The notes beneath the pieces are model-generated. The model was not told where the DNA came from. It was given only the letters and a program-made list of their open reading frames with translations, and made no database searches. From IMG/VR virus record IMGVR_UViG_3300033463_000200: a DNA stretch of 51,552 nt. One strand, 5' to 3'. Made by a program: the position numbers and the translations under genes. The stretch's first letter is position 1. Each line of letters opens with the position of its first letter. Positions 13,614 through 45,049 of the stretch are shown here, piece after piece. The stretch is from a virus.

Positions 13614-13642
13614 TTTAATCTCCTTATCTTTGTCAAGATAGT

Positions 13643-14017
13643 TTAATATATGCAATATGTTTCAACAAAATCTTCAGGATTGTTACATAATTCTCTTTCA
13701 AGTTCTACAAGATCTTTAGACGTATAGTCTTTTTGAAATTCTTCTTTTAATTCATAGATAGCACCATCTATATCTTCGTTATAGACATCGTATCTTAATT
13801 CCTCAATCTCTTCTTCTGACATGTCGTCGGTTTTATAATCTTCTACAGTTTGTTCCAAATCTTCAATTATAGAACTATAAGATGTGATAACATCCATAGA
13901 ATTTTCTAAAAGCCATTCATTAGCTTCTTCTATTGAGGAACATTCTGCAAGAGACCAGTTTTCCATTCCATGAAGCCCGCCATAAATTTGCTCGTAAGCG
14001 TGAATTACATATAGCAT
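13643..14017 (-). CDS. Highly acidic hypothetical protein (124 aa). Possible DNA-mimic-type anti-defence factor.
   Basis: RBS GGAGAAGTAAT precedes ATG at 14017. Very Asp/Glu-rich. The ORF-track N-terminal extension overlaps tRNA-Arg and was rejected. Confidence 0.4.
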   Translation of the reverse strand: MLYVIHAYEQIYGGLHGMENWSLAECSSIEEANEWLLENSMDVITSYSSIIEDLEQTVEDYKTDDMSEEEIEELRYDVYNEDIDGAIYELKEEFQKDYTSKDLVELERELCNNPEDFVETYCIY

Positions 14018-14041: not shown

Positions 14042-14113
14042 TACTCCGAGAGGGAATCGAACCCACATTTCATGGTTCGTAGCCATGTAGTCTCTCCGTT
14101 AGCTTATCGGAGT
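14042..14113 (-). tRNA. tRNA-Arg (anticodon ACG).
   Basis: Acceptor ACTCCGA/TCGGAGT pairs perfectly. The anticodon loop is CTACGAA. T-arm GGGTTCGATTCCC. Confidence 0.7.
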
Positions 14114-14291
14114 TTAATGAGGAATTAGTTGGCGCTAATCCTCAATCCTTATATACGCCAATATATAAGGTTTTTGGTTTATGTCGGGAAAACCGTGGCG
14201 CGACACAGTCCGTCATCAGCACCAAAACCCGTTAGATCTAACCTTCTCTCCAACTTTTCGTATGCCACCTACTTCGTTCAAAAGAGAAGAA

Positions 14292-14365
14292 TACCCCAAG
14301 TTGGATTTAAACCAACGACCCTACGCTTAGAAGGCGTATGCTCTAGTCCACTGAGCTACTGGGGC
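14292..14365 (-). tRNA. tRNA-Arg (anticodon TCT).
   Basis: 5' end GCCCCAGTAGCTCAGTGG. Anticodon stem TACGC/GCGTA with loop CTTCTAA. T-arm GTTGGTTTAAATCCAAC. Confidence 0.65.
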
Positions 14366-14513
14366 TAGTCGGCTTTATCGTTAAGCCGTAACGCTGATAG
14401 TGTGGATATTTTCCCAAAGTCTTGCAAGACACTCTTTAAATGGGGTGCGCACTTCTCGACAAGAGTAACATCCTATCAGATTAAGTAAGCCACGATTTCC
14501 GACCGTAGCTTAA

Positions 14514-14584
14514 CAGGATCTAGAGGAATTGAACCCCTGTCTACTGATTTGGAGTCAGTCATGTTACCACTACACCAAGAACCC
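14514..14584 (-). tRNA. tRNA-Trp (anticodon CCA).
   Basis: Anticodon stem ACTGA/TCAGT with loop CTCCAAA. T-arm GGGGTTCAATTCC. The acceptor stem has one mismatch. Confidence 0.55.
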
Positions 14585-14587
14585 ATA

Positions 14588-14664
14588 CAGCCCCTGTTGG
14601 ATTCGAACCAACGACATATCCAGGAGTCAAAGTCCTGTGCCTTGAGCCACTTGGCGAAGGGGCT
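14588..14664 (-). tRNA. tRNA-Gln (anticodon TTG).
   Basis: Acceptor AGCCCCT/AGGGGCT pairs perfectly. Anticodon stem CAGGA/TCCTG with loop CTTTGAC. T-arm GTTGGTTCGAATCCAAC. Discriminator G. Confidence 0.65.
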
Positions 14665-14754
14665 AAGAAGTGGCTTGTCCTGGTTACGCTCCAGGCTCCC
14701 TGGTTCTTCAGACCAGTGCTTTCACTAGATTAGCTTACAAGCCATAGCAAGAGA

Positions 14755-14838
14755 CATTTAAGGATTTGAACCTTTCAAAAAATTTTTGGAGAATTTTTCT
14801 TTAACCATTTTAATAAATATTGCTGTATGTCTCTTTAA
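14755..14838 (-). ncRNA. AT-rich tRNA-like element. The T-arm is AAGGTTCAAATCCTT and a candidate anticodon loop is CTCCAAA. Degenerate or specialised.
   Basis: The acceptor pairing is only partial (AGACATA/AATGTCT). It contains the 18-bp repeat ATTGCTGTATGTCTC at 14818-14835. Confidence 0.25.
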
Positions 14839-14911
14839 AGATCTGTTTCCGACTTGCACGGAAGTCTATCGGGTTGCAGCCGATATGCCCTTCTTATTAG
14901 ACGAACAGATC
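14839..14911 (-). tRNA. tRNA-Cys-like (anticodon GCA) with a noncanonical T-loop (TGCAAGT).
   Basis: Acceptor GATCTGT/ACAGATC pairs perfectly. Anticodon stem ATCGG/CCGAT with loop CTGCAAC. T-arm TTCCG-TGCAAGT-CGGAA. The D-loop lacks a GG. Confidence 0.45.
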
Positions 14912-14948
14912 AATAGAAAGATACGTTTTTCATATCTTTCATAAATAT

Positions 14949-14977
14949 ATTATATCAAAAATTTTAAAAAAAATCAA
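14949..14977 (-). promoter_or_regulatory. Minus-strand sigma70-like promoter (TTGATT-17-TGATATAAT) driving the tRNA cluster 14911-14042 and downstream genes.
   Basis: Member of the repeated motif family TTATTATATCAAAAATTTT (plus-strand view). Confidence 0.6.
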
Positions 14978-14990
14978 TGCGGACGTTACA

Positions 14991-15401
14991 TTACCAGTTA
15001 GTATACACATCTAACGTGTTCCAAGCACATCCACTGTCATAAACTTTTCCTTTTTTACCAAACGGGGTTTTTACAACTCTACCACGTTTTAGTTTAGAAC
15101 TTGCTAAACAAATATATCCTTTCTTATCACAGACATATCCATTCTTATCTACGTGTCTGCCTGGAATTTTTAATCCTCTACCTGGAAGAACGCGTTGTGA
15201 ATACCAAGTCCACCGCCATCCATTCCAGCGAATAACTCCCATTCTTTTAAAGTATTTAGCAGAATATTTTGCTTTTTTCTTTTTCTTTTTTGCTTCGGCA
15301 GTAACAACAAAAGGACTCTTATGATTTAAGTCTGGCATAATAAGAGTCGCTCCAAAAATCAAACTAAGGATTAAAAACAAACTTAATATCTTTTTTCTCA
15401 T
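14991..15401 (-). CDS. Secreted 3D-domain protein (MltA/SpsE-like cell-wall-binding domain). Has a signal peptide.
   Basis: RBS AAAGGAAAA precedes ATG. The N-terminus is hydrophobic. The C-terminus ...VKTPFGKKGKVYDSGCAWNTLDVYT resembles the 3D domain. Confidence 0.5.
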   Translation of the reverse strand: MRKKILSLFLILSLIFGATLIMPDLNHKSPFVVTAEAKKKKKKAKYSAKYFKRMGVIRWNGWRWTWYSQRVLPGRGLKIPGRHVDKNGYVCDKKGYICLASSKLKRGRVVKTPFGKKGKVYDSGCAWNTLDVYTNW

Positions 15402-15479
15402 ATATCTATTTTCCTTTCGTAATAAAAAATAGGGCTGTTTATCTAAATATAAACAACCCTAAATTCCTAAAGCAGACTT

Positions 15480-15827
15480 TTAATTTAGAAACTTACTAAG
15501 GACACTAAGGAAGTCAAAAACATCATTTTCTCCTACGTCGTCACAAGAGAAAGTAGTATGAAAATAACCATAATCTTTAGTAAAATCTGTTAGAAGTTTA
15601 CTAACTTTATTCTGTGCTTCCCTAGCTTCTCTAAAGGCTTCCTCGACCTCTTTCGCACGTCTGGTCCTTTCAGCCCTCTTAGCAGCTTCCGCCCTTTCTT
15701 TTTCCGCACGTGCTTGTTCTGCTTTTGCTTTTGTTATACGTTCTTTTTCTTTTGCTTCATTCTCTGCTTTGATCAGTTCCTGTTCTGAATCAAAAAATTT
15801 GTTTAGATCTGTACTGTAATACTTCAT
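15480..15827 (-). CDS. Coiled-coil protein rich in Ala/Glu/Lys/Arg (115 aa).
   Basis: RBS AAAGGAATT precedes ATG at 15827 (MKYYSTDL...). The upstream ORF-track extension was rejected. Confidence 0.4.
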   Translation of the reverse strand: MKYYSTDLNKFFDSEQELIKAENEAKEKERITKAKAEQARAEKERAEAAKRAERTRRAKEVEEAFREAREAQNKVSKLLTDFTKDYGYFHTTFSCDDVGENDVFDFLSVLSKFLN

Positions 15828-15994
15828 TTTGTTAATTCCTTTCTTAACATATTTGGCGGCTAGCCACTTCCTAGGCATAGCCTGGAACCGCCACTTTGTT
15901 GATGGCACATTTAATCCAGGGATTTCACCGTACTTATTTAATGACTGGCTCGGGAGCTACCCTTACAAGAATCTAAGTTCCTACGGCTACCAGC

Positions 15995-16065
15995 GGTGAC
16001 TACTGGGAATCGAACCCAGATCTTTAGAACCACAATCTAAGGTATTACCATTATACGATAGTCAC
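15995..16065 (-). tRNA. tRNA-His (anticodon GTG).
   Basis: Acceptor GTGACTA/TAGTCAC with discriminator C. Anticodon stem TTAGA/TCTAA with loop TTGTGGT. Confidence 0.7.
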
Positions 16066-16067
16066 AG

Positions 16068-16140
16068 ACGGAGTGATGGGACTCGAACCCACAACCACGT
16101 GATCCCAAATCACGCATGCTACCAGTTGCAACACACCCCG
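16068..16140 (-). tRNA. tRNA-Pro (anticodon TGG).
   Basis: Anticodon stem CGTGA/TCACG with loop TTTGGGA. T-arm TGGGTTCGAGTCCCA. Confidence 0.7.
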
Positions 16141-16689
16141 ATATACAAGACACTTAATGTTTACTATTGCCTTTACCATTTGGCTACTTAAATTTTAAGA
16201 TGAGATTCGAACTCATAATATATAGTCTTCTATAAGAATTGCTGTATGTGTCTTATAATTTTAAATGTAATCTCTTAATCCAAAGAACTATTCATCAGTT
16301 CCTTTGAAATCATTGAAGTTTTCTTTAGTATATCTCTAATCTTTTAGAATATCAACAAGAGAAGATAAGTATCCCTATATTAAAAAAGGTAAGTATAAAT
16401 CTTCTGCTATTGTAAAATAACCTTCGTCATCAAAATCATACTATGTTAAATTTAGAATATTGTCTTCCTATTCAAGACCCATTACATAGAAATTGCCCTA
16501 TTTAAAGGGATAATCTAATATCATTGCACTTTTTCTCATATACATCCCTCTTTCTTTTGTTTTTATACAAGATTGGTAAGAATTTACTTTGTATTTTATT
16601 GTAGTTCAAAAGAAATTCTTTGAAAGAAAGATACTACTTTGCAGCCTTTTTAATCTTCAGATTTTTTATTGCAGTTAACCAACCTTTAA

Positions 16690-16775
16690 CGGAAGTGAGA
16701 GGATTCGAACCTCTGGACCCTCTCGGGTCGGAAGTTTAGCAAACTTCTGCACTAAGCCATACTATGCGACACTTC
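16690..16775 (-). tRNA. tRNA-Ser (anticodon GCT), class II.
   Basis: Acceptor GGAAGTG/CACTTCC. Anticodon loop TTGCTAA. Long variable arm CGACCCGAGAGGGTC. Discriminator G. Confidence 0.75.
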
Positions 16776-16781
16776 CATATA

Positions 16782-16855
16782 ATAGCCCGGCTGGGATTCG
16801 AACCCAGGATCACCAGATTTAGAGTCTGGGGTGTTAAGCCTCTCCACTAACGGGC
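16782..16855 (-). tRNA. Suppressor tRNA (anticodon CTA, reads UAG).
   Basis: Anticodon stem CCAGA/TCTGG with loop CTCTAAA. T-arm CTGGGTTCGAATCCCAG. Acceptor GGCCCGT/CCGGGCT with a G1-U72 pair. Discriminator A. Confidence 0.7.
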
Positions 16856-17436
16856 CAGATTAATATAACAAGACACTAAGTAAATAAACAGTTTACCCAA
16901 AACAGTTTTTTTCTTGTTGATTGCTGTATGTGTCTTAAATGGAGCTGGCCGGTACTGCCCCGGCGTCCAACGATACTACTTATTATAAGTTTTTCCACGT
17001 TGTATCTGTGATAAATAGTTACATTAAAACTATATAAAACTTAAATCAAGCAGCTAACGCTGTAGGATAAAAATAATCGTTTGCGTTTATTTTAATATAT
17101 TGATTACGTCAATTACTCGAACGAACTTATAATTTTTATACCCCTGTCGAAACTATTTACAGCCCCAAACATAATCATATTAAACTTACCTTTATCTAAA
17201 TTACTCAACACCGAAACACTATTAGTTGGTTTGTGTTGCCATCTTCATCATGTGATTACTTAATCCTCATCCACGCCTCATTAAATATAAAAGAAGTCTA
17301 ATATGATTTGTTCGTATTGCCCAGTCTTGTTTTCATGCGCACCGTCACGCAAATATTGCACACAATATCCAAAACCAAACAACCGATTACATTAGTCAAC
17401 GGTGTTATTATATTAAGTAGATCTGGTGTGCCAGAG

Positions 17437-17520
17437 TGCACTCGGTGGGACTTGAACCCACATGAGTATTATCTCCTGGGATTTTAAGTCCCATGCGTAT
17501 GCCAATTCCGCCACGAGTGC
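17437..17520 (-). tRNA. tRNA-Leu (anticodon TAA), class II.
   Basis: Acceptor GCACTCG/CGAGTGC. Anticodon stem TGGGA/TCCCA with loop CTTAAAA. Long variable arm. Discriminator A. Confidence 0.75.
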
Positions 17521-17569
17521 AAACAAAATGGCAGTTTATAAAAACTGCCAAACAACGAGTTACAAATCA

Positions 17570-17938
17570 TTACTGGGCCTGTTCCTTAAGGAACTCGTCA
17601 TATTCATCCTTGAATACCCAGCGGAATCCATAAGCTACACGAGTCTTGGTACGCTTATTCAAAGCATCACCAATACCAGATTTACCTTCCTTACCAATAG
17701 CAGCAAGGGCTTCTTTCTGAGTTGCATACTCTGCAAGAATCTTCCCTGTCTCAATGTCAATCTGGAGAACGCCAGACTTATTCGGGGACTTGCGTTTCTT
17801 AGCAGCTGCCGCATCCTGTTCATCAAGAACTTCAAGAGCATCACTAAGAACTTCAATTACCTGTTCCTGAATACCGGGATCAATCTCACTTGAATTCTGG
17901 AAGTAAAACAACAGTCCATTGATCTTATTTCGATCCAT
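17570..17938 (-). CDS. Small DNA-binding protein with a homing-endonuclease-type NUMOD1/IENR1-like helix-turn-helix. No nuclease domain.
   Basis: RBS GGAGATAGGAAT precedes ATG. IETGKILAEYATQKEALAAIGKEGKSGIGDALNKRTKTRVAYGFRWVF matches the C-terminal DNA-binding motif of phage homing endonucleases. Confidence 0.5.
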   Translation of the reverse strand: MDRNKINGLLFYFQNSSEIDPGIQEQVIEVLSDALEVLDEQDAAAAKKRKSPNKSGVLQIDIETGKILAEYATQKEALAAIGKEGKSGIGDALNKRTKTRVAYGFRWVFKDEYDEFLKEQAQ

Positions 17939-18620
17939 ATTCCTATCTCCTTTTATCTCTTGTTTTGTTAATAAAATAACTTAGTTATATTTATGACAGA
18001 CCTTCGCCTTACTGGTAATAACCTTCGCCTATGTTCAACCAATGAGGAGATATACCTGAGCATTAAAGAGCGACTTTAATGCTATATACCCCATCCGCAT
18101 AGCAGATAAATATGCAATATATCCTATCTGCATAGCAGACAAATCTCATAAAGGATTTGTTACCTTTAACTTTCAGCTACCTTTCAGTTAATATTACGAA
18201 TTTTTTCTTACTGTAAAAAATCCCAATATCAAAGTCAACGCACATTTAGCCTACTCGTACCCTGACCCAATCTTATACCTGACTTTCATCAGTTCAAGTG
18301 CGAAACCTCTTAGTGGATTTCCAAGGTTTGTTTAATTTTCCAGGTCAAACCTAACTTGGATTGGTGCTCTTGTTAAGAACCCCATATTGCGAAGCCGATT
18401 GGAACAGTGTTTTTAGTCGCGATTACACCAGCGCTGTTAACCGAAACCTTTAAGTTCTTAAAGGCGACCTATGTACATCACTGCATAGATTCTTTTTACA
18501 CAAAGGGTATCCTCTTTGTTTCATTATTTCCAATAATGGTTAACACCTCAGCACTATGGAATTAGTGTTTATCACTGAGTTGAATCATAAATATAACTAA
18601 ATTATTTTATTTAGTTAAAG

Positions 18621-18673
18621 TCCCAGGTAAGGATTCGAACCTTACTACTCTAAGAGCAAGCCACTCTGGGAAC
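18621..18673 (-). ncRNA. Truncated tRNA-like element (about 53 nt). The T-arm GTAAGGTTCGAATCCTTAC and acceptor-like ends are present, but there is no complete D/anticodon region.
   Basis: Read directly. Probable tRNA remnant. Confidence 0.3.
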
Positions 18674-18709
18674 CTCTATATTACAACAAAAGAGGGTAAT
18701 GGGTGAAAG

Positions 18710-18782
18710 TCGCGGAAGTGGGATTTGAACCCACGATCTTTTGCTTATGAGGCAAACGAGATGACCCCTTCTCCATTCCGCA
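18710..18782 (-). tRNA. tRNA-Met or Ile2 (anticodon CAT), elongator type.
   Basis: D-stem GAGA/TCTC. Anticodon stem TTTGC/GCAAA with loop CTCATAA. T-arm GTGGGTTCAAATCCCAC. Confidence 0.7.
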
Positions 18783-19068
18783 AAATATATAAAAAATAGC
18801 TTTGTCCATTTCTAGGCTCTCTGACTTTTGTTTATAGCCTGAATTTTTTGGGTCATGACTCCCATCAGATAGTCTGTTATGATCTCTCCCTGCCGACCGC
18901 CACAGTCTGGTGGACTCTCCTAAGGTTAATGTACACTCCTCTTAGGTTACCGTTGCTATCTTTTTGCATCAAGACAGTTTATAAAAAGTGATTCTTTAAA
19001 TGACTAATTTAAAATACCTATTTTTTTATTTTAATGGCTGTAACTGTCTTTCTTTATCTTATACATAT

Positions 19069-19097
19069 ATTATATCAAAAATTTTCGTTTTTGTCAA
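19069..19097 (-). promoter_or_regulatory. Minus-strand consensus promoter (TTGACA-17-TGATATAAT) for the tRNA sub-cluster.
   Basis: The reverse complement of 19061-19105 reads TTGACAAAAACGAAAATTTTTGATATAAT. Confidence 0.65.
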
Positions 19098-19430
19098 AAA
19101 TTTTTGAAATACCCTACGTGGAAATTGCATCCACACTTCATCTGCGCTTTTCTTCTAAAATGAGTTTACTTCGTGCTATGAAGTTCTATCATTAGGGTAC
19201 GCGGGAACAGGTTAATGCAACGTTGGACTAGCCTATTAGCGTATATAACCGGAGTCCGCACTCCTTTTTTCTCCTTTTCTATATGAAGAATAAGTTAGTT
19301 GCAACAGCACTTATTCGTAAAAAGAAGTTAGTGGTATATACCAAAGCGACGAGAAGGTGATGAGCCTTCACTCTAAAGATATTAGAGCCATGGTTATATA
19401 TCTTTAGATTCTCCTCAGGGACGTCGCATA

Positions 19431-19503
19431 TGATCCTGGTGGGACTTGAACCCAACATTACGAGATTGAAAGCCTCGTGACCTAGCCTTTAGTCGACAGG
19501 ACC
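19431..19503 (-). tRNA. tRNA-Glu (anticodon TTC).
   Basis: Anticodon stem CGAGG/TCTCG with loop CTTTCAA. T-arm TTGGGTTCAAGTCCCA. Confidence 0.6.
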
Positions 19504-19626
19504 GAACGGGAATTTACTTTGCCTCTTTATATACCGTTTGTCACAATGCCACATACCTCGCAAGCCAGTGGTAGTTTAATTCCCCAAATCCATGCTAACG
19601 GTGATTTTAATGTCTTATCTGACTAG

Positions 19627-19700
19627 CGACTCTGACGGGATTTGAACCCGTGATCTTCGCCGTGACAGGGCGATGTCCTAAACCACTAGACGACAGAGTC
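19627..19700 (-). tRNA. tRNA-Asp (anticodon GTC).
   Basis: Acceptor GACTCTG/CAGAGTC pairs perfectly. Anticodon loop CTGTCAC. Discriminator G. Confidence 0.75.
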
Positions 19701-19806
19701 AAATTAATAGAGAAACTACTTTCCGCGGCGTGTCCCTTTTCTGGGCCGACTCCCAGCGAGGATTTTTCCTCCCCACCGTTAGGCTGTTACTCATTTCTCT
19801 ATTGTA

Positions 19807-19880
19807 TAGGAGTAGGGGGACTCGAACCCTCAGACTTCTGATCCTAAGTCAGACGCATATGCCAATTCTGCTATACTCCC
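19807..19880 (-). tRNA. tRNA with anticodon TAG (Leu by anticodon) but a class I fold with a short variable arm.
   Basis: Anticodon stem TCTGA/TCAGA with loop CTTAGGA. Acceptor GGGAGTA/TACTCCT. Discriminator A. Confidence 0.55.
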
Positions 19881-19886
19881 AAATAA

Positions 19887-19960
19887 TACTTCTGGTAGGA
19901 TTCGAACCTACAACACCCCGGGTTTGAGCCGATTGCGTCTGCCAGTTGCGCCACAGAAGC
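19887..19960 (-). tRNA. tRNA with anticodon CAA (Leu by anticodon) but a class I fold with a short variable arm.
   Basis: Anticodon loop CTCAAAC. T-arm GTAGGTTCGAATCCTAC. Discriminator A. Confidence 0.5.
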
Positions 19961-19969
19961 ATTTAAGTG

Positions 19970-20041
19970 GATACGGTGGGATTCGAACCCAATCTTTCTC
20001 CTTGCAAGGGAGATGCTTTCCCAATTAAGCTACCGACCCAA
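19970..20041 (-). tRNA. tRNA-Ala (anticodon TGC) with G3-U70. The acceptor stem has two internal mismatches.
   Basis: 5' end GGGTCGGTAGCTTAATTGG. Anticodon stem TCTCC/GGAGA with loop CTTGCAA. Discriminator A. Confidence 0.55.
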
Positions 20042-20388
20042 AATGGTAAGTTGAGTTTATAGTCCCAGGCACTTACCAAGCCACTGGACAAGTCTTTTTT
20101 AATTTGCGAACTTGAGTAAAAAAGACAAAACTCGACTCCTTTAATTTCTTCTCTTCTTATTCGGAAGGAATATGCCGCTGTGACATAACAGCGGATCCCC
20201 TGATAACCAATCTTTGCAACAAGGTGGGCCGGGTCCAGCCCTCAGGTTGTCCATACCATGATGACTAGGTTTCTCGTTCAAACCTAATAAAACGTATAGA
20301 TCCTCATTTCACGCCCGAATCTAGAGCCGGCTGTTCTAACCATCAACAGCTTAGGAACTTGCATTGGTTTGGGGCAAGTCATCCCAAA

Positions 20389-20451
20389 TGACCTTAGAGG
20401 GAATCGAACCCTCTCTTCCACCGGCGTGCTATCCCAATACACTATAAGGTC
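20389..20451 (-). ncRNA. Truncated tRNA-like element (about 62 nt). The acceptor pairs perfectly and the D-arm and T-arm are present, but there is no full-length anticodon arm.
   Basis: Acceptor GACCTTA/TAAGGTC. T-arm GAGGGTTCGATTCCCTC. Confidence 0.3.
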
Positions 20452-20670
20452 TATGTCTTAAACCGTCGTTTAAGACATAAAATATGTTTAAAGTCGTCAC
20501 TCTAAACATAAAGGCAGATCCGGATTTCAAGAACATATTACTCCAAGCACGGGGAATCGAACCTCTTAATATGTCTGACTACCTTAATTCTTTCTTTTGC
20601 TAGCTACCGCCAGCCTTACGAGGAGAAGAAAGATTGAACTTAGGTGGTTTATAGCTTACCACTAACTGCA

Positions 20671-20744
20671 CGGGAACGGGTGGACTCGGACCACCGACAT
20701 CTTGCTTAACAGGCAAGCGTTCTGACCGACTGAACTACGCTCCC
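20671..20744 (-). tRNA. tRNA-Asn (anticodon GTT).
   Basis: Anticodon stem CTTGC/GCAAG with loop CTGTTAA. T-arm GGTGG-TCCGAGT-CCACC. Confidence 0.7.
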
Positions 20745-20751
20745 AATTTAA

Positions 20752-20907
20752 TTAACGATCTTTTCTCTTTTCCAGAGCTTCAAAAATGATGCTTCCGAAT
20801 CTTTCTTCGATGAAACGTACCTGAGAATATCCTTTTACAAAAGTAATATGCTTCTGTCTGTTGTCATCCTGATAAGTTACCATGTAAGTTACTAATTCTT
20901 TCTTCAT
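20752..20907 (-). CDS. Small hypothetical protein (51 aa).
   Basis: RBS GAGGAG precedes ATG at 20907. Not in the ORF track (below 60 aa). Confidence 0.3.
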   Translation of the reverse strand: MKKELVTYMVTYQDDNRQKHITFVKGYSQVRFIEERFGSIIFEALEKRKDR

Positions 20908-20992
20908 AATTAAAACTCCTCTACATGATAAAAAGCATTTTTCATTTGATATAATAATTATATCAAAAATTTTTTATTTTTTCAAATGATCG

Positions 20993-21193
20993 TTATAAAT
21001 CCCCTTCATAAAACTTTTTTCCAAAAAACTTATCAATAGATACTTCTGCAAATCCTAGTAATTTACAAAAATCTCTACAAATGGTATGTATTTCATTTAG
21101 ATCTGGATCAGAAGGAATTTCCCAGTTACAAGAGATCTTTCTTTCATAAGAATTGCTTCCATCGGGAATAAAGGTTATTATAATATTATTCAT
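20993..21193 (-). CDS. Hypothetical protein (66 aa).
   Basis: ORF track. RBS GAGGATATAAAA precedes ATG. Confidence 0.4.
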   Translation of the reverse strand: MNNIIITFIPDGSNSYERKISCNWEIPSDPDLNEIHTICRDFCKLLGFAEVSIDKFFGKKFYEGDL

Positions 21194-21222
21194 TTTTATA
21201 TCCTCTTTAAAATTATTATAAA

Positions 21223-21294
21223 AGCCCTCGACAGGATTTGAACCTGCAACCCAGTCATTACAAGTGACTTGCGCTTCCGTTGCGCTACGAGGGC
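21223..21294 (-). tRNA. tRNA-Thr (anticodon TGT).
   Basis: Acceptor GCCCTCG/CGAGGGC. Anticodon stem AGTCA/TGACT with loop CTTGTAA. Confidence 0.75.
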
Positions 21295-21403
21295 ACGCGC
21301 AGGTATGTTTTATGCGGACTTTCCTGCTTTAACCGCACGCCGGATTTGCATTTGGTCAGGCGCGTGACCTACCTACATCTGAATCGCAACTTCAGGGGAT
21401 AAG

Positions 21404-21477
21404 TACGCCCAATGGGATTTGAACCCATGACACCTAGATTAAAAGTCTAGTGCTACTACCAACTGAGCTACGGGCGC
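21404..21477 (-). tRNA. tRNA-Lys (anticodon TTT).
   Basis: Anticodon stem CTAGA/TCTAG with loop CTTTTAA. T-arm ATGGGTTCAAATCCCAT. Confidence 0.75.
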
Positions 21478-21480
21478 ATA

Positions 21481-21551
21481 AGTCTCATACGGGATTCGAA
21501 CCCGTGACTCATGCTTGGAAGGCACGTATGTTTCCACTACACCAATGAGAC
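21481..21551 (-). tRNA. tRNA-Gly (anticodon TCC).
   Basis: Acceptor GTCTCAT/ATGAGAC. Anticodon loop CTTCCAA. T-arm ACGGGTTCGAATCCCGT. Confidence 0.7.
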
Positions 21552-21784
21552 AGGTCGAGGCTCTGCGCATAAGCCTCTGTCCTTTTTCAAACTATTAGGT
21601 AACCCATTAGGAAAAACATTTAAAATCATAGGGAGTGCGAGGCATCTTTGGTTTTTTAGGAAAAAACCACTGAGGATCACACCAAGCAATCTGGAAAACC
21701 GTCCCTTTACTTCGGGACTGAAGCCGCAGTCTTTGTCAAATAAGAACTTTCGGAAAAACTCATTTTTATTTTTATTGTATATAT

Positions 21785-21813
21785 ATTATATCAAAATTTT
21801 TTGTAAAAATCAA
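21785..21813 (-). promoter_or_regulatory. Minus-strand promoter (TTGATT-17-TGATATAAT) for the Gly/Lys/Thr tRNAs and downstream small genes.
   Basis: Motif family member. Confidence 0.55.
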
Positions 21814-21820
21814 ACGTTTT

Positions 21821-22105
21821 TTATTTTGCTCGATAGCATTTATACCAATATCTATGAAATTCTTTAATAGTAGGAAATCTTTTTCTCCATGCACTATCTT
21901 CTTCATATGCTTTTTTAGCTTCAAACCATGTCCATCTACTAATATAATCGTGTATATTCCAAGAGCAAAATAATTTTTTATATTCTTTTCTGTTGTATTT
22001 ACCTTCAGTATTTCTTACTTTTGAATTAGCTATTCTTTTAGACCTTTTTGTAGAACCAGCTTTTCCATCACTACATATAGGATGTTTTTTATAACTTCTA
22101 CTCAT
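21821..22105 (-). CDS. Basic (Lys/Arg-rich) hypothetical protein (94 aa).
   Basis: ORF track. Confidence 0.4.
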   Translation of the reverse strand: MSRSYKKHPICSDGKAGSTKRSKRIANSKVRNTEGKYNRKEYKKLFCSWNIHDYISRWTWFEAKKAYEEDSAWRKRFPTIKEFHRYWYKCYRAK

Positions 22106-22911
22106 TTTTTTATCCTCTTGAATGCGTTTACAACTCCATTAATTATAGGACTAAAATATTTTATTTTTTCTTTTTTATTAATAGGAATATGAATATTATC
22201 AGTTATTCCATATAATTCAAAAAATACTTCAGAAGCTTTGTCAATAGGAATATAAAAGCGACCTTTTTTACCCCATAAAACTCCCCATGAATTTTGAACG
22301 ATTAAATATTTTTTAGTCCAGCCAACGATAATAACAGCATGACCGCTATAATTAGCATTTTTATTATATTTGTATACATTTTTAGTTGATAAAGATGCAT
22401 CGTCATACCATTTCATACCAGCTAAAACGGGACCATGATTATAGATAGCGTATTTTAATTCATTAATATTTTGAATTTTATAGTATGTACTAATCCTATT
22501 TGGATATGCTTTTGCTTTATAAAAATTAAAATTTGATGAAACTATTTTCATAGCAGTTTCATAATCGTTATTACCAGGAAGTATATTTTTTAATAAATCT
22601 CCATATTTTTGAACAATTTTTAAACCATCTCTTAGATACATTCCATCTCCAATGTATTCACATTCTTGTCTACATCCATAAATAAAATCCGTACTAAAAC
22701 GATTATATTTAGATGAATCTTTAAAACTATGATATTCAACAATTTCTGCAAGAGCATGAGCTACACAGGTTGGTTTTGAACCTTGATTTTTAATTGATAA
22801 TATACCCAAATCAAAAGTTGCTGGAACTTTTGAAACATCAACAGTTTTTGCAATAGTATAATCTCGCACATCAAAAGGTGAAGGTATTGCACCAAACCCA
22901 TTATTCTACAT
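22102..22911 (-). CDS. Papain-like cysteine peptidase (Peptidase C1 family). The ORF begins ATG-TAG.
   Basis: The catalytic motifs are present: QGSKPTC (Cys), NYSGHAVIIVGW (His) and VQNSWGVLWG (Asn). A strong RBS GAGGAGGG sits 5 nt before ATG at 22911, and the second codon is TAG, in frame with the ORF-track segment. Confidence 0.7.
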
Positions 22912-22936
22912 ATTATCCCTCCTCTTACTTTGATAG

Positions 22937-23024
22937 TAGAAGATCCGGGACTCGAACCCGGATTTACCTTGCTAGGGCCTAGGGCTTATAAGGCCCGGGC
23001 TCTTACCGATTGAGCTAATCTTCC
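22937..23024 (-). tRNA. tRNA with anticodon TAT (reads AUA) carrying an unusually long (about 19-nt) variable region.
   Basis: D-stem GCTC/GAGC. Anticodon loop CTTATAA. T-arm CCGGGTTCGAGTCCCGG. Confidence 0.5.
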
Positions 23025-23028
23025 ACAG

Positions 23029-23111
23029 CGGAGGGAGTAGGATTCGAACCCACGGACCTTTCGGCCTCTGGTTTTCAAGACCAGTTCCATAAACCGCTCG
23101 GACATCCCTCC
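23029..23111 (-). tRNA. tRNA-Ser (anticodon TGA), class II.
   Basis: Acceptor GGAGGGA/TCCCTCC. Anticodon stem CTGGT/ACCAG with loop CTTGAAA. Long variable arm. Discriminator G. Confidence 0.75.
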
Positions 23112-38812: not shown

Positions 38813-39109
38813 TTTAATTCTTCCTTTCTCTTGTTAAAGTTTGCGACCAATCCAACCACCCTGCAGGCTTATCCTCTCAGTCGCCCCTGCATGCTGCCTC
38901 ACATTTATATACCGCAAAGTTGGACTTAGGCTTGCGGTGGTGGGTCTTTGTCAAGAGAGGCTTACTCGGTCAACTTTGCGACCATTTCCTTTGTTCTGCT
39001 CCCTTCCCTCACCTTGTATCTGTATTATAGCATCCTTCTTTTGAAAAATCAATAGGCAGACTGCACAATTATGGGATCAAATTTTTGTGTATCTTTTTCT
39101 AATTTTCCC

Positions 39110-39139
39110 TTGACAAAAGCTGGCGGCATGTGGTATAAT
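39110..39139 (+). promoter_or_regulatory. Plus-strand consensus promoter of a cassette.
   Basis: Hairpin 1 at 39147-39172 (GGCCCGCG..CGCGGGCC). Confidence 0.55.
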
Positions 39140-39182
39140 GGATTTTCGGCCCGCGGCCGCTGGTCGCGGGCCAACCACAATT

Positions 39183-39210: not shown

Positions 39211-39244
39211 AGAGAAAGGAGGAAAACAATTTTTAGATATTGAG

Positions 39245-39317
39245 TGTGCCATCTGGGACTTGAACCCAGAACCCTACGATTAAGAGTCGTATGCTCTACC
39301 AATTGAGCCAATGGCAC
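39245..39317 (-). tRNA. tRNA-Lys (anticodon CTT), located inside the early-gene region.
   Basis: Acceptor GTGCCAT/ATGGCAC. Anticodon stem TACGA/TCGTA with loop CTCTTAA. T-arm CTGGGTTCAAGTCCCAG. Confidence 0.75.
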
Positions 39318-39354: not shown

Positions 39355-39708
39355 TCAGGCGATGGAGAACACCGCCTTTTTGCCCTCAATGGTCTTGACG
39401 ACCTTTCCAGCTTCTACCAACTTGCGCAGGAGAGCCGAAATCTTCTGGTTGGTGTACCCATCAAGACCCTCGCCAGTCTTAATGAGGTCAGTTACAGTGA
39501 CAGGAGAGCCAATTTCCTCAAGCGCAACAAGGATGGACTCCATGACCCCCTCGTTGGCTTTCTGGGTCTTGGTCAAACCCTTGCCAGACTTGCGGTTAGC
39601 AAGCAAGTCGATTTCATGCTTCAGACCCTCGATGAGAACATCCCTGTCCTCAACCTCAACAGTGCCAATAACCTCGATAGCTCTCTGGAACATTTCACGC
39701 TTAGTCAT
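39355..39708 (-). CDS. Winged-helix-like small protein, paralogue B (117 aa).
   Basis: RBS GAAAGGTGG precedes ATG at 39708. Own promoter at about 39750-39795. Confidence 0.5.
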   Translation of the reverse strand: MTKREMFQRAIEVIGTVEVEDRDVLIEGLKHEIDLLANRKSGKGLTKTQKANEGVMESILVALEEIGSPVTVTDLIKTGEGLDGYTNQKISALLRKLVEAGKVVKTIEGKKAVFSIA

Positions 39709-39978
39709 GGATAGTACCACCTTTCTTAAAAAATGCTTTTTGTTTGTTTTCTATGGCTTTATTATACCATAGATTTTTTGTTTGTCAAGAGTTTTTTTAA
39801 GATTTTGAAAAGTTTTTTTCAAGAAATCAATCGGCGACCTAGGCTCGTTCAACCTCTTTACTTTTTTTCCTTTCCTTTATCTTGATTAAATTATATCAAA
39901 AATTTTTGAAAAAATCAATATCGGAATATTGCACTAATTATGGGAAGATATTTTGTGCAACTTTTTTGCACTTTTCGC

Positions 39979-40074
39979 TTGACAAAACTGCGGCGAGTAT
40001 GATATAATGGAATTTTGGCCGCGGCCCGGAGGACCGCGGCGCGACATTATACACCTGCGACTTCCGCTTGTCAA
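39979..40074. promoter_or_regulatory. Pair of convergent consensus promoters: plus TTGACA 39979 / TATAAT 40003, and minus TTGACA 40074 / TATAAT 40051. They flank the palindrome GGCCGCGGCCCGGAGGACCGCGGC (40017-40040).
   Basis: Both promoters have 17-18 nt spacers. Read directly on both strands. Confidence 0.55.
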
Positions 40075-40096
40075 TATCGGAATAATGCACAAAAAT

Positions 40097-40119
40097 AAGG
40101 GATGCTGTTGGCATCCCTT
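40097..40119. terminator. Hairpin AAGGGATGC..GCATCCCTT downstream of the 40137..40520 gene.
   Basis: A T-run follows on the minus strand. Confidence 0.5.
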
Positions 40120-41526: not shown

Positions 41527-41555
41527 TTGACTTTTTCTCTGGGCTGTGGTATAAT
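41527..41555 (+). promoter_or_regulatory. Plus-strand consensus promoter of a cassette (TTGACT-17-TGGTATAAT).
   Basis: Hairpin 1 at about 41563-41590. Terminator hairpin at 41601-41622 (ACCCCTTTT..AAAAGGGGT) followed by a U-tract. Confidence 0.55.
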
Positions 41556-41607
41556 GGAATTTCGCCGCGCGCCGGTGGCGTGCGGCCCGCTCAAAAAAAT
41601 ACCCCTT

Positions 41608-42466: not shown

Positions 42467-42495
42467 TTGACTTTTTCTCTGGCGTATGGTATAAT
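42467..42495 (+). promoter_or_regulatory. Plus-strand consensus promoter of a cassette.
   Basis: Hairpin 1 at 42504-42530 (GGGCCGCGC..GCGCGGCCC). Hairpin 2 at 42542-42569 (AGGGTCTTTAT..ATAAAGACCCT). Confidence 0.55.
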
Positions 42496-42548
42496 GGTAT
42501 TTTGGGCCGCGCGGCGAGCCAGCGCGGCCCGCCCATTAACTAGGGTCT

Positions 42549-43792: not shown

Positions 43793-43821
43793 CTTGACTT
43801 TTTGGCTGGCGTGTGGTATAA
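43793..43821 (+). promoter_or_regulatory. Plus-strand consensus promoter of a cassette.
   Basis: Hairpin 1 at 43829-43865. Bidirectional terminator at 43875-43902 (AGGAGCAAG..CTTGCTCCT then TTTT). Confidence 0.55.
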
Positions 43822-43888
43822 TGGATTCTCGGGCCGCGCCGGAGTCTGGGCGGAGGTGCGCGGCCCAACGAAAAAAGGAGCAAGTTTT

Positions 43889-44107
43889 TCACTTGCTCCT
43901 TTTCATCTTTCTCTTTTCTGCTCTTTTTGCAATCCTTGCCAGGCGGATCGCCTTTTCTTTTTCAGTTTCCATCGGCTTCTCATCAATCACAACATCCTTG
44001 TAAGTGTTATACGGAAGTTCTTTCTTCCAATCCTCTGCCTCTCTGTAAGTCTTGACGGTTTTTACATACATATTTCTGAAATAACATTCATAAACTAAAG
44101 CTCTCAT
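43889..44107 (-). CDS. Basic hypothetical protein (72 aa).
   Basis: ORF track. Confidence 0.35.
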   Translation of the reverse strand: MRALVYECYFRNMYVKTVKTYREAEDWKKELPYNTYKDVVIDEKPMETEKEKAIRLARIAKRAEKRKMKRSK

Positions 44108-44948: not shown

Positions 44949-45001
44949 TTGACAACTTCAATTCTCATGTGATATAATTTTTCGGCTTGCTGCGGCCGCA
45001 G
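44949..45001 (+). promoter_or_regulatory. Plus-strand consensus promoter (TTGACA-18-TGATATAAT) followed by the palindrome CTGCGGCCGCAG. It reads into the iteron/AT-rich region.
   Basis: Upstream TTGTGCAAAA / TTTGCACAAAA / TTTGTGCATTT operator-like repeats at 44818-44935. Confidence 0.55.
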
Positions 45002-45049
45002 GCGAAAGTCTGCATTGCGCTGGCATCGTGTGAGATACACCGGCGACCG

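What the first reader, a model, noticed from the sequence alone, without database searches (positions are those of the whole stretch)
39979..40074. Convergent consensus promoters facing each other across a 24-bp GC palindrome that is duplicated at 37187-37212
Plus strand: TTGACA (39979) ... TATAAT (40003). Minus strand: TTGACA (40074) ... TATAAT (40051). Only about 36 bp separate them, and this gap holds the palindrome GGCCGCGGCCCGGAGGACCGCGGC. The identical element recurs at 37187-37212 behind a minus-strand promoter. Head-on strong promoters predict transcriptional interference or collision, or a protein-bound switch. This is unusual architecture for a phage early region.
Basis: seen in the sequence. 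Interest (0 to 1): 0.6.

Follow-up and report, generated by a model that had tools for sequence, protein, structure and literature searches.

The report
Repeated promoter-plus-hairpin cassette in phage
The two head-on promoters and their GC palindrome are real, and they are one copy of a promoter-plus-RNA-hairpin cassette that recurs in the early-gene regions of a group of uncultivated gut and rumen phages, where it mostly fires against the direction of the genes.

Summary
A 12/12 promoter on + (39979-40008) faces a 12/12 promoter on - (40074-40046). Thirty-seven bp separate them and hold the hairpin 40018-40040, which is repeated exactly at 37189-37211.

The site is not a one-off switch. It is one variant of a cassette with at least 8 copies in window 36-45 kb and about 165 copies in 39 related sequences, including published phage phAss-1. 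The cassette is a TTTGTGCA box, a consensus sigma-A-type promoter, then a GC hairpin starting 7-9 nt after the -10. The 165 copies carry 159 different hairpin sequences. This fits an RNA stem-loop at the transcript's 5' end, not a protein operator.

The main promoter type points against the local genes (97 against, 4 with) and sits just past a gene's terminator. Head-on pairs recur 15 times, 7 of them with exactly 37 bp, including an orthologous site with a different hairpin.

My best reading: hairpin-capped antisense RNAs cover the 3' ends of early genes, and at this site the two promoters exclude each other. The function is inferred; no transcript ends are mapped. I class it as a new variant of known kinds. 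Interest 0.58.

The parts
39979..40008 (+). Type-A promoter, pointing against the genes: TTGACA, 18-nt spacer, TGaTATAAT, 12/12 match.
39952..39959 (+). TTTGTGCA box of the type-A promoter, 19 nt upstream of its -35.
   Evidence: The box is linked to hairpin promoters: 68% of box promoters carry a hairpin, against 7% of promoters without a box.
40009..40016 (+). GGAATTTT, the conserved stretch between the -10 and the hairpin. The predicted start is G40017, at the base of the stem.
   Evidence: The consensus is GGAATTTY, and the gap is 7-9 nt in 113 of 125 type-A copies. The start site is inferred, not mapped.
40018..40040 (.). GC hairpin shared by both transcripts: 7-bp outer stem GCCGCGG/CCGCGGC. 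It forms the 5' end of the RNA from either promoter.
40046..40074 (-). Type-B promoter P2, in the gene direction: TTGACA, 17-nt spacer, TATAAT, 12/12 match. The hairpin starts 5 nt after its -10.
40086..40093 (-). TTTGTGCA box of P2, 11 nt upstream of its -35.
40097..40119 (.). Terminator hairpin of the upstream 127-aa gene (40520-40137, minus strand). It is scored as terminator-like on both strands, so it is also the likely 3' end of the type-A RNA (about 105-110 nt).
39890..39918 (-). Gene-direction promoter P1 (TTGATT, 17-nt spacer, TATAAT), back to back with the type-A promoter.
   Evidence: A divergent partner is found for 100 of 122 type-A copies, with a modal spacing of 58-60 nt.
39929..39945 (+). 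Distal box TTGCACTAATTATGGGA. Read on the minus strand it is the TTTGTGCA-type box of P1.
   Evidence: CACAAATTTYGGGA is 70-90% conserved at a fixed distance.
37189..37211 (.). Second, identical copy of the hairpin.
37217..37245 (-). Type-B promoter in front of the second hairpin, 12/12 match with TG.
37257..37264 (-). TTTGTGCA box of that promoter.
37265..37290 (.). Terminator hairpin just upstream (in the gene direction) of that promoter.
37175..37180 (+). TTGACA facing the second hairpin with no -10 behind it. This is the 'box plus -35 only' variant, so the plus-strand promoter is absent at this copy.
   Evidence: about 9 similar cases in other phages.
38273..38335 (+). Type-A cassette: promoter plus hairpin GCGCCGCGG..CCGCGGCGC at 38311-38335.
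39110..39172 (+). Type-A cassette: hairpin at 39148-39172, next to the terminator of tRNA-Lys.
41527..41586 (+). Type-A cassette: hairpin at 41564-41586.
42467..42530 (+). Type-A cassette: hairpin at 42504-42530.
43794..43866 (+). Type-A cassette: 36-nt hairpin at 43831-43866, followed by a two-way terminator at 43873-43903.
36222..36275 (+). Degenerate relative: a 12/12 box promoter followed by only a weak GC hairpin.
44949..45020 (+). Related 12/12 box promoter followed by a different GC-rich structure.

Best explanation
The site is one copy of a conserved regulatory cassette found in the early, small-gene region of a clade of uncultivated gut and rumen Firmicute phages. This clade appears to read TAG as an amino acid.

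The core cassette is a TTTGTGCA box, a near-perfect sigma-A-type promoter, and a very GC-rich hairpin placed so that the transcript begins at the base of the stem. The hairpin works as an RNA 5'-terminal stem-loop, the kind that protects RNA from 5'-end-dependent decay. It is not a protein operator and not a terminator.

The main form, type A (here the plus-strand promoter), sits just downstream of a gene's terminator and fires back against the gene. It would make a hairpin-capped RNA antisense to the terminator and 3' end of the upstream early mRNA. I infer that this RNA limits that mRNA's output, by pairing with its 3' end or by polymerase collision.

At 39979-40074 a second box promoter (type B, gene direction) has been added on the other side of the same hairpin. 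Both RNAs therefore start with the hairpin. The predicted starts are only about 23 bp apart, so only one polymerase can occupy the site at a time. The antisense promoter would therefore throttle the gene-direction promoter, and the reverse.

At 37189 the antisense partner lacks a -10, so the gene-direction promoter and its 5' hairpin act unopposed.

Shown here: the family, its anatomy, its orientation bias, its conservation, and structure conserved without sequence. Inferred: the start sites, RNA stabilisation, the antisense effect and promoter exclusion.
For: Family and spread:
- There are 8 canonical copies in window 36-45 kb.
- A 22-nt promoter pattern found the same cassette in 26 of 27 IMG/VR loci, in about 14 Clostridia MAG contigs and in published phage phAss-1.

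The hairpin is a structure, not a sequence:
- 159 distinct sequences occur in 165 cassettes, and only 21 contain CCGCGG.
- For 57 promoters chosen by the GGWWWTY stretch alone, the downstream fold has median z -2.98 and 82% fall below -2. Controls give 0.01 and 15%.
- An orthologous site in L018 keeps both promoters but has a different hairpin that is 10 nt longer.

The hairpin is tied to the promoter:
- The gap from the -10 to the stem is 7-9 nt in 113 of 125 type-A copies.
- The distance from the hairpin to the next hairpin, usually the gene's terminator, varies more (median 14 nt, interquartile range 10-27).

Link between box and hairpin:
- 68% of 181 box promoters are followed by a hairpin, against 7% of 469 promoters without a box.

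Antisense orientation:
- Downstream purine skew says the genes run opposite to type A in 97 cases and with it in 4.
- 84 of 113 have a convergent ORF with a ribosome-binding site ending within 150 nt.
- 81 of 125 are followed by a gene-direction terminator, and 36 of those also look like terminators in the type-A direction.

Strand asymmetry of loops:
- Purine-rich 4-mers occur in 24 loops and their complements in 3.

The head-on variant is recurrent:
- There are 15 pairs, 7 of them with exactly 37 nt between the -10 hexamers. Each pair is always one long-gap promoter plus one short-gap promoter.

Not a terminator:
- There is no T-run after the stem on either strand.

Precedents:
- Front-end clash of polymerases at close face-to-face promoters: PMC2760811.
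- Interference at convergent promoters in phage 186: PMC3675496.
Against: - No transcript ends or abundances are available. The promoters are consensus matches only, and the host is unknown.
- Only about 44% of the adjacent terminators look able to stop the type-A RNA, so many antisense RNAs would be long or of undefined length.
- It is not obvious why a lytic phage would place an antisense promoter stronger than the gene promoter after nearly every early gene.
- The rigid spacing also fits a DNA-level nucleoprotein role. Box-to-(-35) distances are 9-10 or 19-20 nt, and divergent -35 to -35 distances are 58-60 nt with side peaks about 10 nt either way. Hairpin lengths fall into two classes, 25/27 and 36/37 nt.
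- Type-B starts would fall at or inside the stem, which would shorten the hairpin.
- The exact identity of the two window hairpins, loop included, next to unrelated promoter spacers is not explained by a structure-only constraint.
Confidence: 0.45

Rival explanations
1. Recombination cassette, as with the PeSLs of T4-like phages. On this view the repeated promoter, hairpin and terminator units mainly serve as patches of homology that let small early genes be swapped, inserted or deleted. The head-on pair and the 'no -10' copy would be by-products of such exchanges. This can coexist with a regulatory role.
For: - The cassettes lie between nearly all of the small genes of unknown function in 36-45 kb.
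- Homologous genes in L027, L024 and L021 occur in a different order, with the blocks of homology ending at cassettes.
- Half-cassettes with a -35 but no -10 recur. The PeSL papers describe the same kind of remnant (PMC4122927).
- Short identical blocks are shared by 37189-37266 and 40018-40095 on either side of an unrelated spacer.
Against: - Homology for recombination would not need a hairpin placed exactly 7-9 nt after a -10.
- It would not need structure conserved while the sequence varies, an antisense orientation of 97 to 4, or a 37-bp spacing that recurs across phages.
- Hairpin sequences differ between copies, which reduces homology rather than preserving it.
Confidence: 0.3
2. Polymerase roadblock or insulator. 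On this view the perfect-consensus antisense promoter holds an RNA polymerase just beyond each gene's terminator. This would stop read-through and reinforce termination, or set up divergent-promoter coupling with the neighbouring gene promoter. The RNA itself would be incidental.
For: - Type-A promoters are extreme: 101 of 125 are 12/12 and 120 of 125 have the TG extension. It is established knowledge that such promoters bind tightly and escape slowly.
- They sit a median of 14 nt from the terminator stem.
- They have a fixed, helically phased spacing to a divergent gene promoter.
- The initial transcribed DNA is GC-rich.
Against: - A roadblock needs no palindrome, yet pairing is what is conserved.
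- The distance from hairpin to terminator is not fixed (interquartile range 10-27 nt).
- The strand-asymmetric loop composition points to a transcribed strand.
Confidence: 0.15
3. One reading: the CCGCGG-rich palindrome is an operator for a host or phage protein that decides which of the two promoters fires.
For: - The element is a palindrome lying between two promoters.
- This particular hairpin sequence, loop included, is nearly identical in L024, L027 and L018. That is more conservation than structure alone requires.
- Two small paralogous proteins nearby weakly resemble transcription regulators.
Against: - The family has 159 different hairpin sequences in 165 copies. Stems range from 6 to 17 bp, loop lengths vary, and CCGCGG is present in only 21.
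- The orthologous head-on site in L018 has an unrelated, longer hairpin.
- A more plausible protein site is the conserved TTTGTGCA box, not the palindrome.
Confidence: 0.04
4. The hairpin RNAs act in trans. On this view dozens of short, abundant, 5'-triphosphate GC hairpins work as decoys or sponges for a host RNase, RNA-binding protein or defence sensor, rather than on the neighbouring gene.
For: - There are many copies per genome, each behind a maximal-strength promoter.
- Hairpin sizes fall into discrete classes, 25/27 and 36/37 nt.
- Loops are enriched in purine-rich GGA-type motifs on the transcribed strand.
- The sequence downstream of the hairpin is not conserved.
Against: - No shared loop or stem sequence is present that a single binding partner could recognise.
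- The strict placement next to gene 3' ends would not be needed for a trans-acting RNA.
- No Rfam family matches.
Confidence: 0.1

Closest known systems
PeSL cassettes (promoter-early stem-loops) of T4-like phages RB49/phi1, PST/T4 and nt-1/KVP40 (PMC2839356; PMC4122927, read)
   Same: - Both are short composite units of a near-consensus sigma-70-type promoter plus a stem-loop.
- Both are repeated many times between small genes of unknown function in the variable early regions of large lytic phages.
- Degraded half-units that keep the -35 and the stem-loop but lack the -10 occur in both.
- In both, gene order around them differs between relatives.
   Different: - In a PeSL the stem-loop lies upstream of the promoter and is the terminator of the previous gene. 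The promoter points the same way as the genes and is followed by a Shine-Dalgarno sequence and a start codon.
- Here the hairpin lies downstream of the promoter, at the transcript start, and has no U-run.
- Here the main promoter points against the genes and a separate terminator is present.
- The hosts and phage lineages are unrelated.
Face-to-face promoters: pR/pL of coliphage 186, Pe/Pc of P2, and Pm/Pr of the Ecl18kI restriction-modification system (PMC3675496; PMC2760811)
   Same: Two convergent promoters lie close enough for transcriptional interference. In Ecl18kI the polymerases clash front to front, so the stronger promoter masks the other.
   Different: - Those systems have a dedicated repressor or methyltransferase operator and flanking regulator genes, and they occur once per genome.
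- Here both promoters are perfect consensus matches.
- Here the predicted starts are only about 23 bp apart and flank a shared hairpin.
- No regulator is identified, and the arrangement recurs several times per phage group as a variant of a repeated cassette.
3'-overlapping cis-antisense RNAs: lambda oop RNA against cII, and Bacillus subtilis prophage type I toxin-antitoxin pairs such as txpA/RatA and bsrG/SR4 (from my own knowledge, not checked here)
   Same: A strong constitutive promoter placed downstream of a gene and pointing back at it. It gives a small RNA complementary to the 3' end and terminator of the target mRNA. In those known cases the RNA triggers RNase III-dependent decay.
   Different: - Those are single loci with a defined target (a regulator or a toxin).
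- Here almost every early gene has one.
- Here the RNA carries a conserved 5' GC hairpin.
- Only about 44% have a convincing terminator in the antisense direction.
- No effect on the target has been shown.
5'-terminal stabiliser stem-loops of bacterial mRNAs (E. coli ompA leader; B. subtilis 5' stabilisers such as ermC, aprE and the SP82 early RNA; from my own knowledge)
   Same: A stable stem-loop within a few nucleotides of the 5' end. Such stem-loops are known to block 5'-end-dependent decay by RppH, RNase J1 and RNase E/Y.
   Different: - Known examples head protein-coding mRNAs.
- Here most copies head an antisense, apparently non-coding transcript.
- The position at the 5' end is inferred from the promoter geometry only.

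Membership tests
PeSL (promoter-early stem-loop) cassette | Composite of a near-consensus sigma-70-type promoter and a stem-loop, repeated in the variable early region. | tested here: met
   and (small genes of unknown function).
PeSL (promoter-early stem-loop) cassette | The stem-loop lies just upstream of the promoter and terminates the previous gene. The promoter runs with the genes and is followed by a Shine-Dalgarno sequence and a start codon (PMC4122927, Fig. 3 legend). | tested here: not met
   The hairpin starts 7-9 nt downstream of the -10. Type-A promoters run against the genes, 97 to 4. No U-run follows the stem.
PeSL (promoter-early stem-loop) cassette | Cassettes mark insertion, deletion and replacement breakpoints between closely related genomes. 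| tested here: inconclusive
   Gene order differs from L027, L024 and L021, with homology ending at cassettes. However, the relatives are only 65-75% identical, and only fragments rather than whole genomes were compared.
Face-to-face promoter switch (186/P2 type) | Convergent promoters with overlapping transcripts. | tested here: met
   There are 37 bp between the -10 hexamers, and 15 similar pairs elsewhere. The overlap of about 23 nt is inferred from the promoter geometry.
Face-to-face promoter switch (186/P2 type) | Repressor operators over the promoters, with regulator genes transcribed from them. | tested here: not met
   No conserved duplex sequence lies between the promoters. The flanking genes have no family assignment except two weak matches to regulators.
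Intrinsic (Rho-independent) terminator | GC-rich hairpin followed directly by a run of U. | tested here: not met
   On + the stem is followed by GCGACATT and on - by CAAAATTC. Family-wide, the sequence after the stem is CC then an A-run. The terminator scan did not list this hairpin.
Palindromic protein operator | The same sequence is conserved at every site bound by the protein. | tested here: not met
   There are 159 distinct sequences in 165 copies, with stems of 6-17 bp and two length classes.
5'-terminal RNA stabiliser stem-loop | A stable stem-loop no more than about 4 nt from the transcript's 5' end. | tested here: inconclusive
   The geometry fits. The stem starts 7-9 nt after the -10 for type A and 2-6 nt for type B, and fold energies are -16 to -35 kcal/mol. 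The start sites are not mapped.
5'-terminal RNA stabiliser stem-loop | Lengthens the half-life of the RNA that carries it. | not testable with these tools
   This needs RNA decay measurements.
3'-overlapping cis-antisense RNA | The promoter lies downstream of the target gene and converges on it, so the RNA overlaps the target's 3' end. | tested here: met
   84 of 113 type-A copies have a convergent ORF ending within 150 nt, and the orientation bias is 97 to 4. A terminator follows in 81 of 125. The overlap follows from the geometry.
3'-overlapping cis-antisense RNA | A discrete small RNA with its own terminator, which lowers the target mRNA. | tested here: inconclusive
   36 of 81 adjacent terminators also look functional in the antisense direction. 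The effect on the target cannot be tested here.
Any curated Rfam RNA family | A covariance-model match at or near the gathering score. | tested here: not met
   There is no match at any cassette, either with gathering thresholds or at E up to 1 on 35.5-45.5 kb.

The most novel reading that the evidence does not exclude
A clade of large gut and rumen phages that appear to read TAG as an amino acid carries a dedicated, previously undescribed RNA system. Each early gene would be paired with its own maximal-strength antisense promoter. That promoter would make a 5'-hairpin-capped RNA that times the shut-off of the early gene, or that acts in trans on host RNA decay or defence. Face-to-face promoter pairs sharing one hairpin would serve as a built-in either/or device.
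Probability: 0.25. Interest if true: 0.75.

Novelty: new variant of a known kind. Interest (0 to 1): 0.58.

Why it matters
If the reading is right, these phages control a whole block of early genes with cis-acting RNA and promoter geometry rather than with repressor proteins. A strong antisense promoter and a protective RNA hairpin would follow nearly every early gene.

That would be a compact and portable design for limiting gene output. It would supply a large natural set of sigma-A-type consensus promoters, 5' stabiliser hairpins and close face-to-face promoter pairs for studying transcriptional interference.

The cassette is also a practical marker for the early regions of an uncultivated phage group for which, as far as I could find, no regulatory elements have been described. 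The phAss-1 genome paper mentions no promoters, hairpins or terminators.

Tried and rejected
- Megablast of 36.5-41.5 kb against GenBank phages found no match. A blastn search with the cassette consensus gave only weak hits, one of which led to phAss-1.
- Rfam found nothing at the cassettes, either at gathering thresholds or at E up to 1.
- Intrinsic terminator: rejected, because no U-run follows the stem on either strand.
- Protein operator: rejected on sequence diversity.
- Longest-open-frame comparison to call the coding strand was uninformative. I replaced it with purine skew and ORFs supported by a ribosome-binding site.
- CRISPR-repeat mimic: I considered this because the minus-strand reading, GTCG plus GC hairpin plus GAAAT, loosely resembles type I-C repeats. 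I dropped it because hairpin sequences differ between copies and that strand is not usually transcribed.
- tRNA minihelix with a 3' NCCA: the sequence after the stem is better explained as the complement of the neighbouring terminator's U-run.
- Sigma-54 -24/-12 reading of the distal box: the spacing does not fit.
- Shine-Dalgarno-like loops as ribosome-binding stabilisers: these occur in only 24 of 125 loops, so they are not a general feature.
- Pfam and PHROG scans of ten neighbouring proteins gave no informative function.
- A literal literature search for TATAATGGAATTT found nothing relevant.
- I did not run a formal covariation test on an alignment, because hairpin lengths differ. I used fold z-scores on promoters chosen without reference to the hairpin instead.
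Full report
**What is at the coordinates**

The sequence shows a plus-strand promoter: TTGACA 39979-39984, an 18-nt spacer with TG at 40000-40001, and TATAAT 40003-40008. It also shows a minus-strand promoter: TTGACA 40074-40069, a 17-nt spacer, and TATAAT 40051-40046. Both score 12 of 12 in the consensus scan.

The 37 nt between the two -10 hexamers contain GCCGCGG-CCCGGAGGA-CCGCGGC at 40018-40040. This folds at -18.1 kcal/mol with z -2.85. The same 23 nt recur at 37189-37211, with none expected in shuffles. There they lie 5 nt downstream of another 12/12 minus-strand promoter, 37245-37217.

A second block of 27 nt, covering the -35 and the sequence upstream of it, is also identical at the two sites. 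The 17-nt promoter spacers between the identical blocks are unrelated.

**The setting**

The window is phage-like. It carries a ROOL RNA, a tmRNA-like gene and 23 tRNA genes, including one with anticodon CTA that would read TAG. It has a tail-protein-like ORF and no close relative among GenBank phages.

Genes in 36-49 kb run on the minus strand. This rests on GC and AT skew and on minus-strand ORFs with good ribosome-binding sites. Almost none of these small proteins match a family of known function. Region 33-51.5 kb holds 15 perfect consensus promoters. This is the crowded early-type region of a large phage.

**The site belongs to a repeated family**

Listing every near-consensus promoter with its downstream fold showed a pattern. 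The plus-strand promoters at 38273, 39110, 39979, 41527, 42467 and 43794 share more than the hexamers. Those at 36222 and 44949 fit less cleanly.

Aligned, each reads, from left to right:
- the reverse complement of a gene-direction promoter;
- TATCGGAATATTGCACAAATTTCGGGA;
- a T-rich stretch;
- TTTGTGCA;
- 9-19 nt;
- TTGACA, a spacer and TGnTATAAT;
- GGAATTTY;
- a GC-rich hairpin;
- usually, the terminator of the preceding minus-strand gene.

The hairpin sequences differ from copy to copy, but all of them pair.

**The family is widespread**

A scan of IMG/VR for TGRTATAATGGANTTTNGSSSS returned 27 loci, and 26 carry the same cassette. A similar scan of GTDB genomes found it on about 14 contigs of rumen and gut Clostridia MAGs, several of them 130-160 kb and phage-sized. 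The remaining hits are the number expected by chance.

A weak blastn hit led to phage phAss-1 (OQ749652), which is filed under the 'code 15' clade of phages that read TAG as an amino acid. The last 15 kb of that record hold 8 cassettes. The paper describing that genome mentions no promoters, hairpins, repeats or terminators. Rfam has no matching family.

**Statistics on the pooled data**

The pooled set is the window plus 51 loci, 465 kb in total, with duplicates removed.
- Of 740 promoters matching at least 11 of 12 positions, 181 have a TTTGTGCA box (at most 1 mismatch) upstream of the -35.
- 68% of those 181 are followed by a strong fold, against 7% of the 469 promoters without a box.
- The box lies 9-10 or 19-20 nt from the -35, which is one helical turn apart.
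- 165 promoters are followed by a clear GC stem. They carry 159 distinct hairpin sequences, and only 21 contain CCGCGG.
- To avoid circularity I also chose 57 promoters by the GGWWWTY stretch alone. Their downstream 45 nt fold with median z -2.98, and 82% fall below -2. Control promoters give 0.01 and 15%.
- Hairpins fall into two length classes, 25/27 nt and 36/37 nt.

**Two promoter types**

In 125 'type A' promoters the stem begins 7-9 nt after the -10 in 113 cases. The stretch in between has the consensus GGAATTTY. Of the 125, 101 are 12/12 and 120 have the TG extension.

In 40 'type B' promoters the stem begins 2-6 nt after the -10.

Bacterial polymerase usually starts 6-9 nt after the -10 and prefers a purine. 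The first purine in type A is then the G at the base of the stem, G40017 here. This places the hairpin at the very 5' end of the RNA. It is an inference from geometry, not a mapped end.

**Orientation**

- Purine skew of the 400 nt downstream says the genes run opposite to type A in 97 cases and with it in 4. The upstream side gives 95 and 5.
- 84 of 113 have a convergent ORF, supported by a ribosome-binding site, ending within 150 nt of the hairpin.
- 81 of 125 are followed, a median of 14 nt later, by a terminator for the gene direction. 36 of those also have a T-rich tail in the type-A direction.
- 100 of 122 have a gene-direction promoter back to back with them. The -35 to -35 spacing is 58-60 nt in 57 cases, with side peaks about 10 nt shorter and longer.

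The standard unit, read in the gene direction, is therefore: gene, terminator, GC hairpin, antisense super-consensus promoter, boxes, gene promoter, next gene.

**Where the finding fits**

At 39979-40074 a type-B box promoter in the gene direction has been added between the terminator (40097-40119) and the hairpin. The hairpin is therefore flanked by a type-A promoter and a type-B promoter facing each other.

The same composite occurs 15 times in at least 10 other contigs. It is always one long-gap promoter plus one short-gap promoter, and in 7 cases exactly 37 nt separate the -10 hexamers.

L018 carries a homologue of the adjacent 127-aa gene at about 65% nucleotide identity. The orthologous intergenic site there keeps both promoters and the box, but has an unrelated hairpin that is 10 nt longer. 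The architecture, not the palindrome sequence, is what is conserved.

The copy at 37189 is a third recurrent variant: a type-B promoter and hairpin, with only a box and a TTGACA (37175-37180) and no -10 on the far side. About nine such cases occur elsewhere.

**How it most likely works**

Structure conserved without sequence, fixed placement at the predicted transcript start, and a strand-asymmetric loop composition (purine-rich 4-mers in 24 loops, their complements in 3) all point to a hairpin that acts in RNA. The hairpin has no U-run on either side, so it is not a terminator.

A stable stem-loop at the extreme 5' end is the classic protection against 5'-end-dependent RNA decay in bacteria. 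That is established knowledge, not tested here.

Type-A promoters would therefore make stable RNAs antisense to the terminator and 3' end of the upstream early mRNA. The RNA predicted here is about 105-110 nt, running from 40017 to the two-way terminator at 40097-40119, and it folds as a 5' hairpin plus a terminator hairpin. By analogy with lambda oop and the 3'-overlapping antisense RNAs of Bacillus prophages, such RNAs could shorten the life of early mRNAs. Their transcription could also collide with read-through from the gene.

At the head-on site the two predicted starts are about 23 bp apart, so two polymerases cannot bind at once. Ecl18kI Pm/Pr is an experimental precedent for this front-to-front exclusion, and phage 186 pR/pL for interference at convergent promoters.

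None of these functional steps is shown here.

**Rivals**

- Recombination cassette. A role like that of the PeSLs of T4-like phages is plausible alongside regulation. Gene order differs among relatives, with homology ending at cassettes, and half-cassettes occur, as in the PeSL papers. It does not explain the hairpin's placement or the antisense bias.
- Pure roadblock or insulator. This fits the extreme promoter strength and the rigid spacings, but it does not require a palindrome.
- Duplex protein operator. This is contradicted by the diversity of hairpin sequences. If a protein binds the cassette, the conserved TTTGTGCA box is the better candidate site.
- Trans-acting decoy RNAs. This cannot be excluded.

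**Unexplained**

- The two window copies are identical in the hairpin (loop included) and in the 27-nt block covering the -35 and the TTTGTGCA box, yet the promoter spacers between these blocks are unrelated.
- Nearly the same hairpin recurs in L018, L024 and L027.
- Hairpins fall into two discrete length classes.
- The box and the divergent promoter show helical phasing.

**Verdict**

The interference idea is reasonable, and the protein-switch idea is not supported. What is really there is a conserved and, as far as I could find, undescribed cassette of promoter plus 5' hairpin, found in a clade of uncultivated phages of gut and rumen Firmicutes. The finding is its face-to-face variant. It combines known ingredients (consensus promoters, 5' stem-loops, antisense RNAs, face-to-face promoters, repeated regulatory cassettes) in a layout that matches none of them exactly.

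Noticed in passing
window 16782-16857 (-): A tRNA gene with anticodon CTA, which ARAGORN labels 'Pyl'. It would read the TAG stop codon. The one published relative that carries the cassette, phAss-1, is filed under the 'code 15' clade, so this phage probably also reads TAG as an amino acid in part of its genome.
   Followed up: partly
window 14042-23111 (-): A dense RNA-gene block: 22 tRNA genes, a ROOL RNA (17978-18603, 275 bits) and a tmRNA-like gene (16937-17166). A 505-aa ORF at 12138-13655 beside it matches PHROG 850, 'RNA-binding protein' (E 2e-126).
   Followed up: no
window 38835-39020 (-); L024:4345-4545, L027:8870-9075, L050:752-956, L021:6895-7085: The roughly 170-nt leader between the promoter at 39052-39024 and the 65-aa gene is 79-85% identical across five phages, which is more conserved than the nearby coding genes. 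RNAalifold gives a multi-stem structure in which 6 pairs show compensatory changes. It is a candidate structured RNA with no Rfam match.
   Followed up: partly
window 35880-36125 (-): A GC-rich stretch of about 240 nt with several strong local hairpins, including CCGCGG-containing ones. It lies directly downstream of an 11/12 promoter (36153-36125), with no convincing ORF. It may be another non-coding RNA.
   Followed up: no
window 39244-39317 (-); L027 about 5540-5680: A lone tRNA-Lys (CTT) sits inside the early region, far from the main tRNA block and next to a cassette. L027 shows a homologous stretch (72% identity over the cassette and the window's tRNA-Lys interval) beside a hairpin nearly identical to the one in the finding; the tRNA itself was not checked there.
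   Followed up: partly
window 37519-37860 (-) and 39355-39720 (-): Two paralogous small proteins (113 and 121 aa), each downstream of its own 12/12 promoter. Both match PHROG 19455, and the 113-aa one also weakly matches PHROG 2440, 'transcriptional regulator' (E 5e-4). They are possible candidates for a protein that binds the TTTGTGCA box. This was not tested.
   Followed up: partly
window + L001-L051 (pooled): The cassette shows helical phasing. The TTTGTGCA box lies 9-10 or 19-20 nt from the -35. The divergent promoters are 58-60 nt apart, with side peaks at 44-48 and 68-69 nt. Hairpins are 25/27 or 36/37 nt long. This suggests a fixed three-dimensional arrangement on DNA that the RNA-hairpin model does not explain.
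   Followed up: partly
window 37189-37266 vs 40018-40095: The two sites form a mosaic. A 23-nt block (the hairpin, loop included) and a 27-nt block (the -35 and the box) are identical, but the 17-nt promoter spacer between them is unrelated. The spacer at 40052-40068 resembles the one at the orthologous L018 site. This suggests short-patch gene conversion or strong selection.
   Followed up: partly
window 38019-38153 (-) and 38905-38925: The sequence downstream of two cassette gene promoters shares the motif TTGCGGTATA(T)AA. At 38153 it begins a 44-aa TTG-start ORF that follows a strong AAAGGAAAGGAG ribosome-binding site. It is unclear whether this is a small protein or part of an RNA.
   Followed up: no
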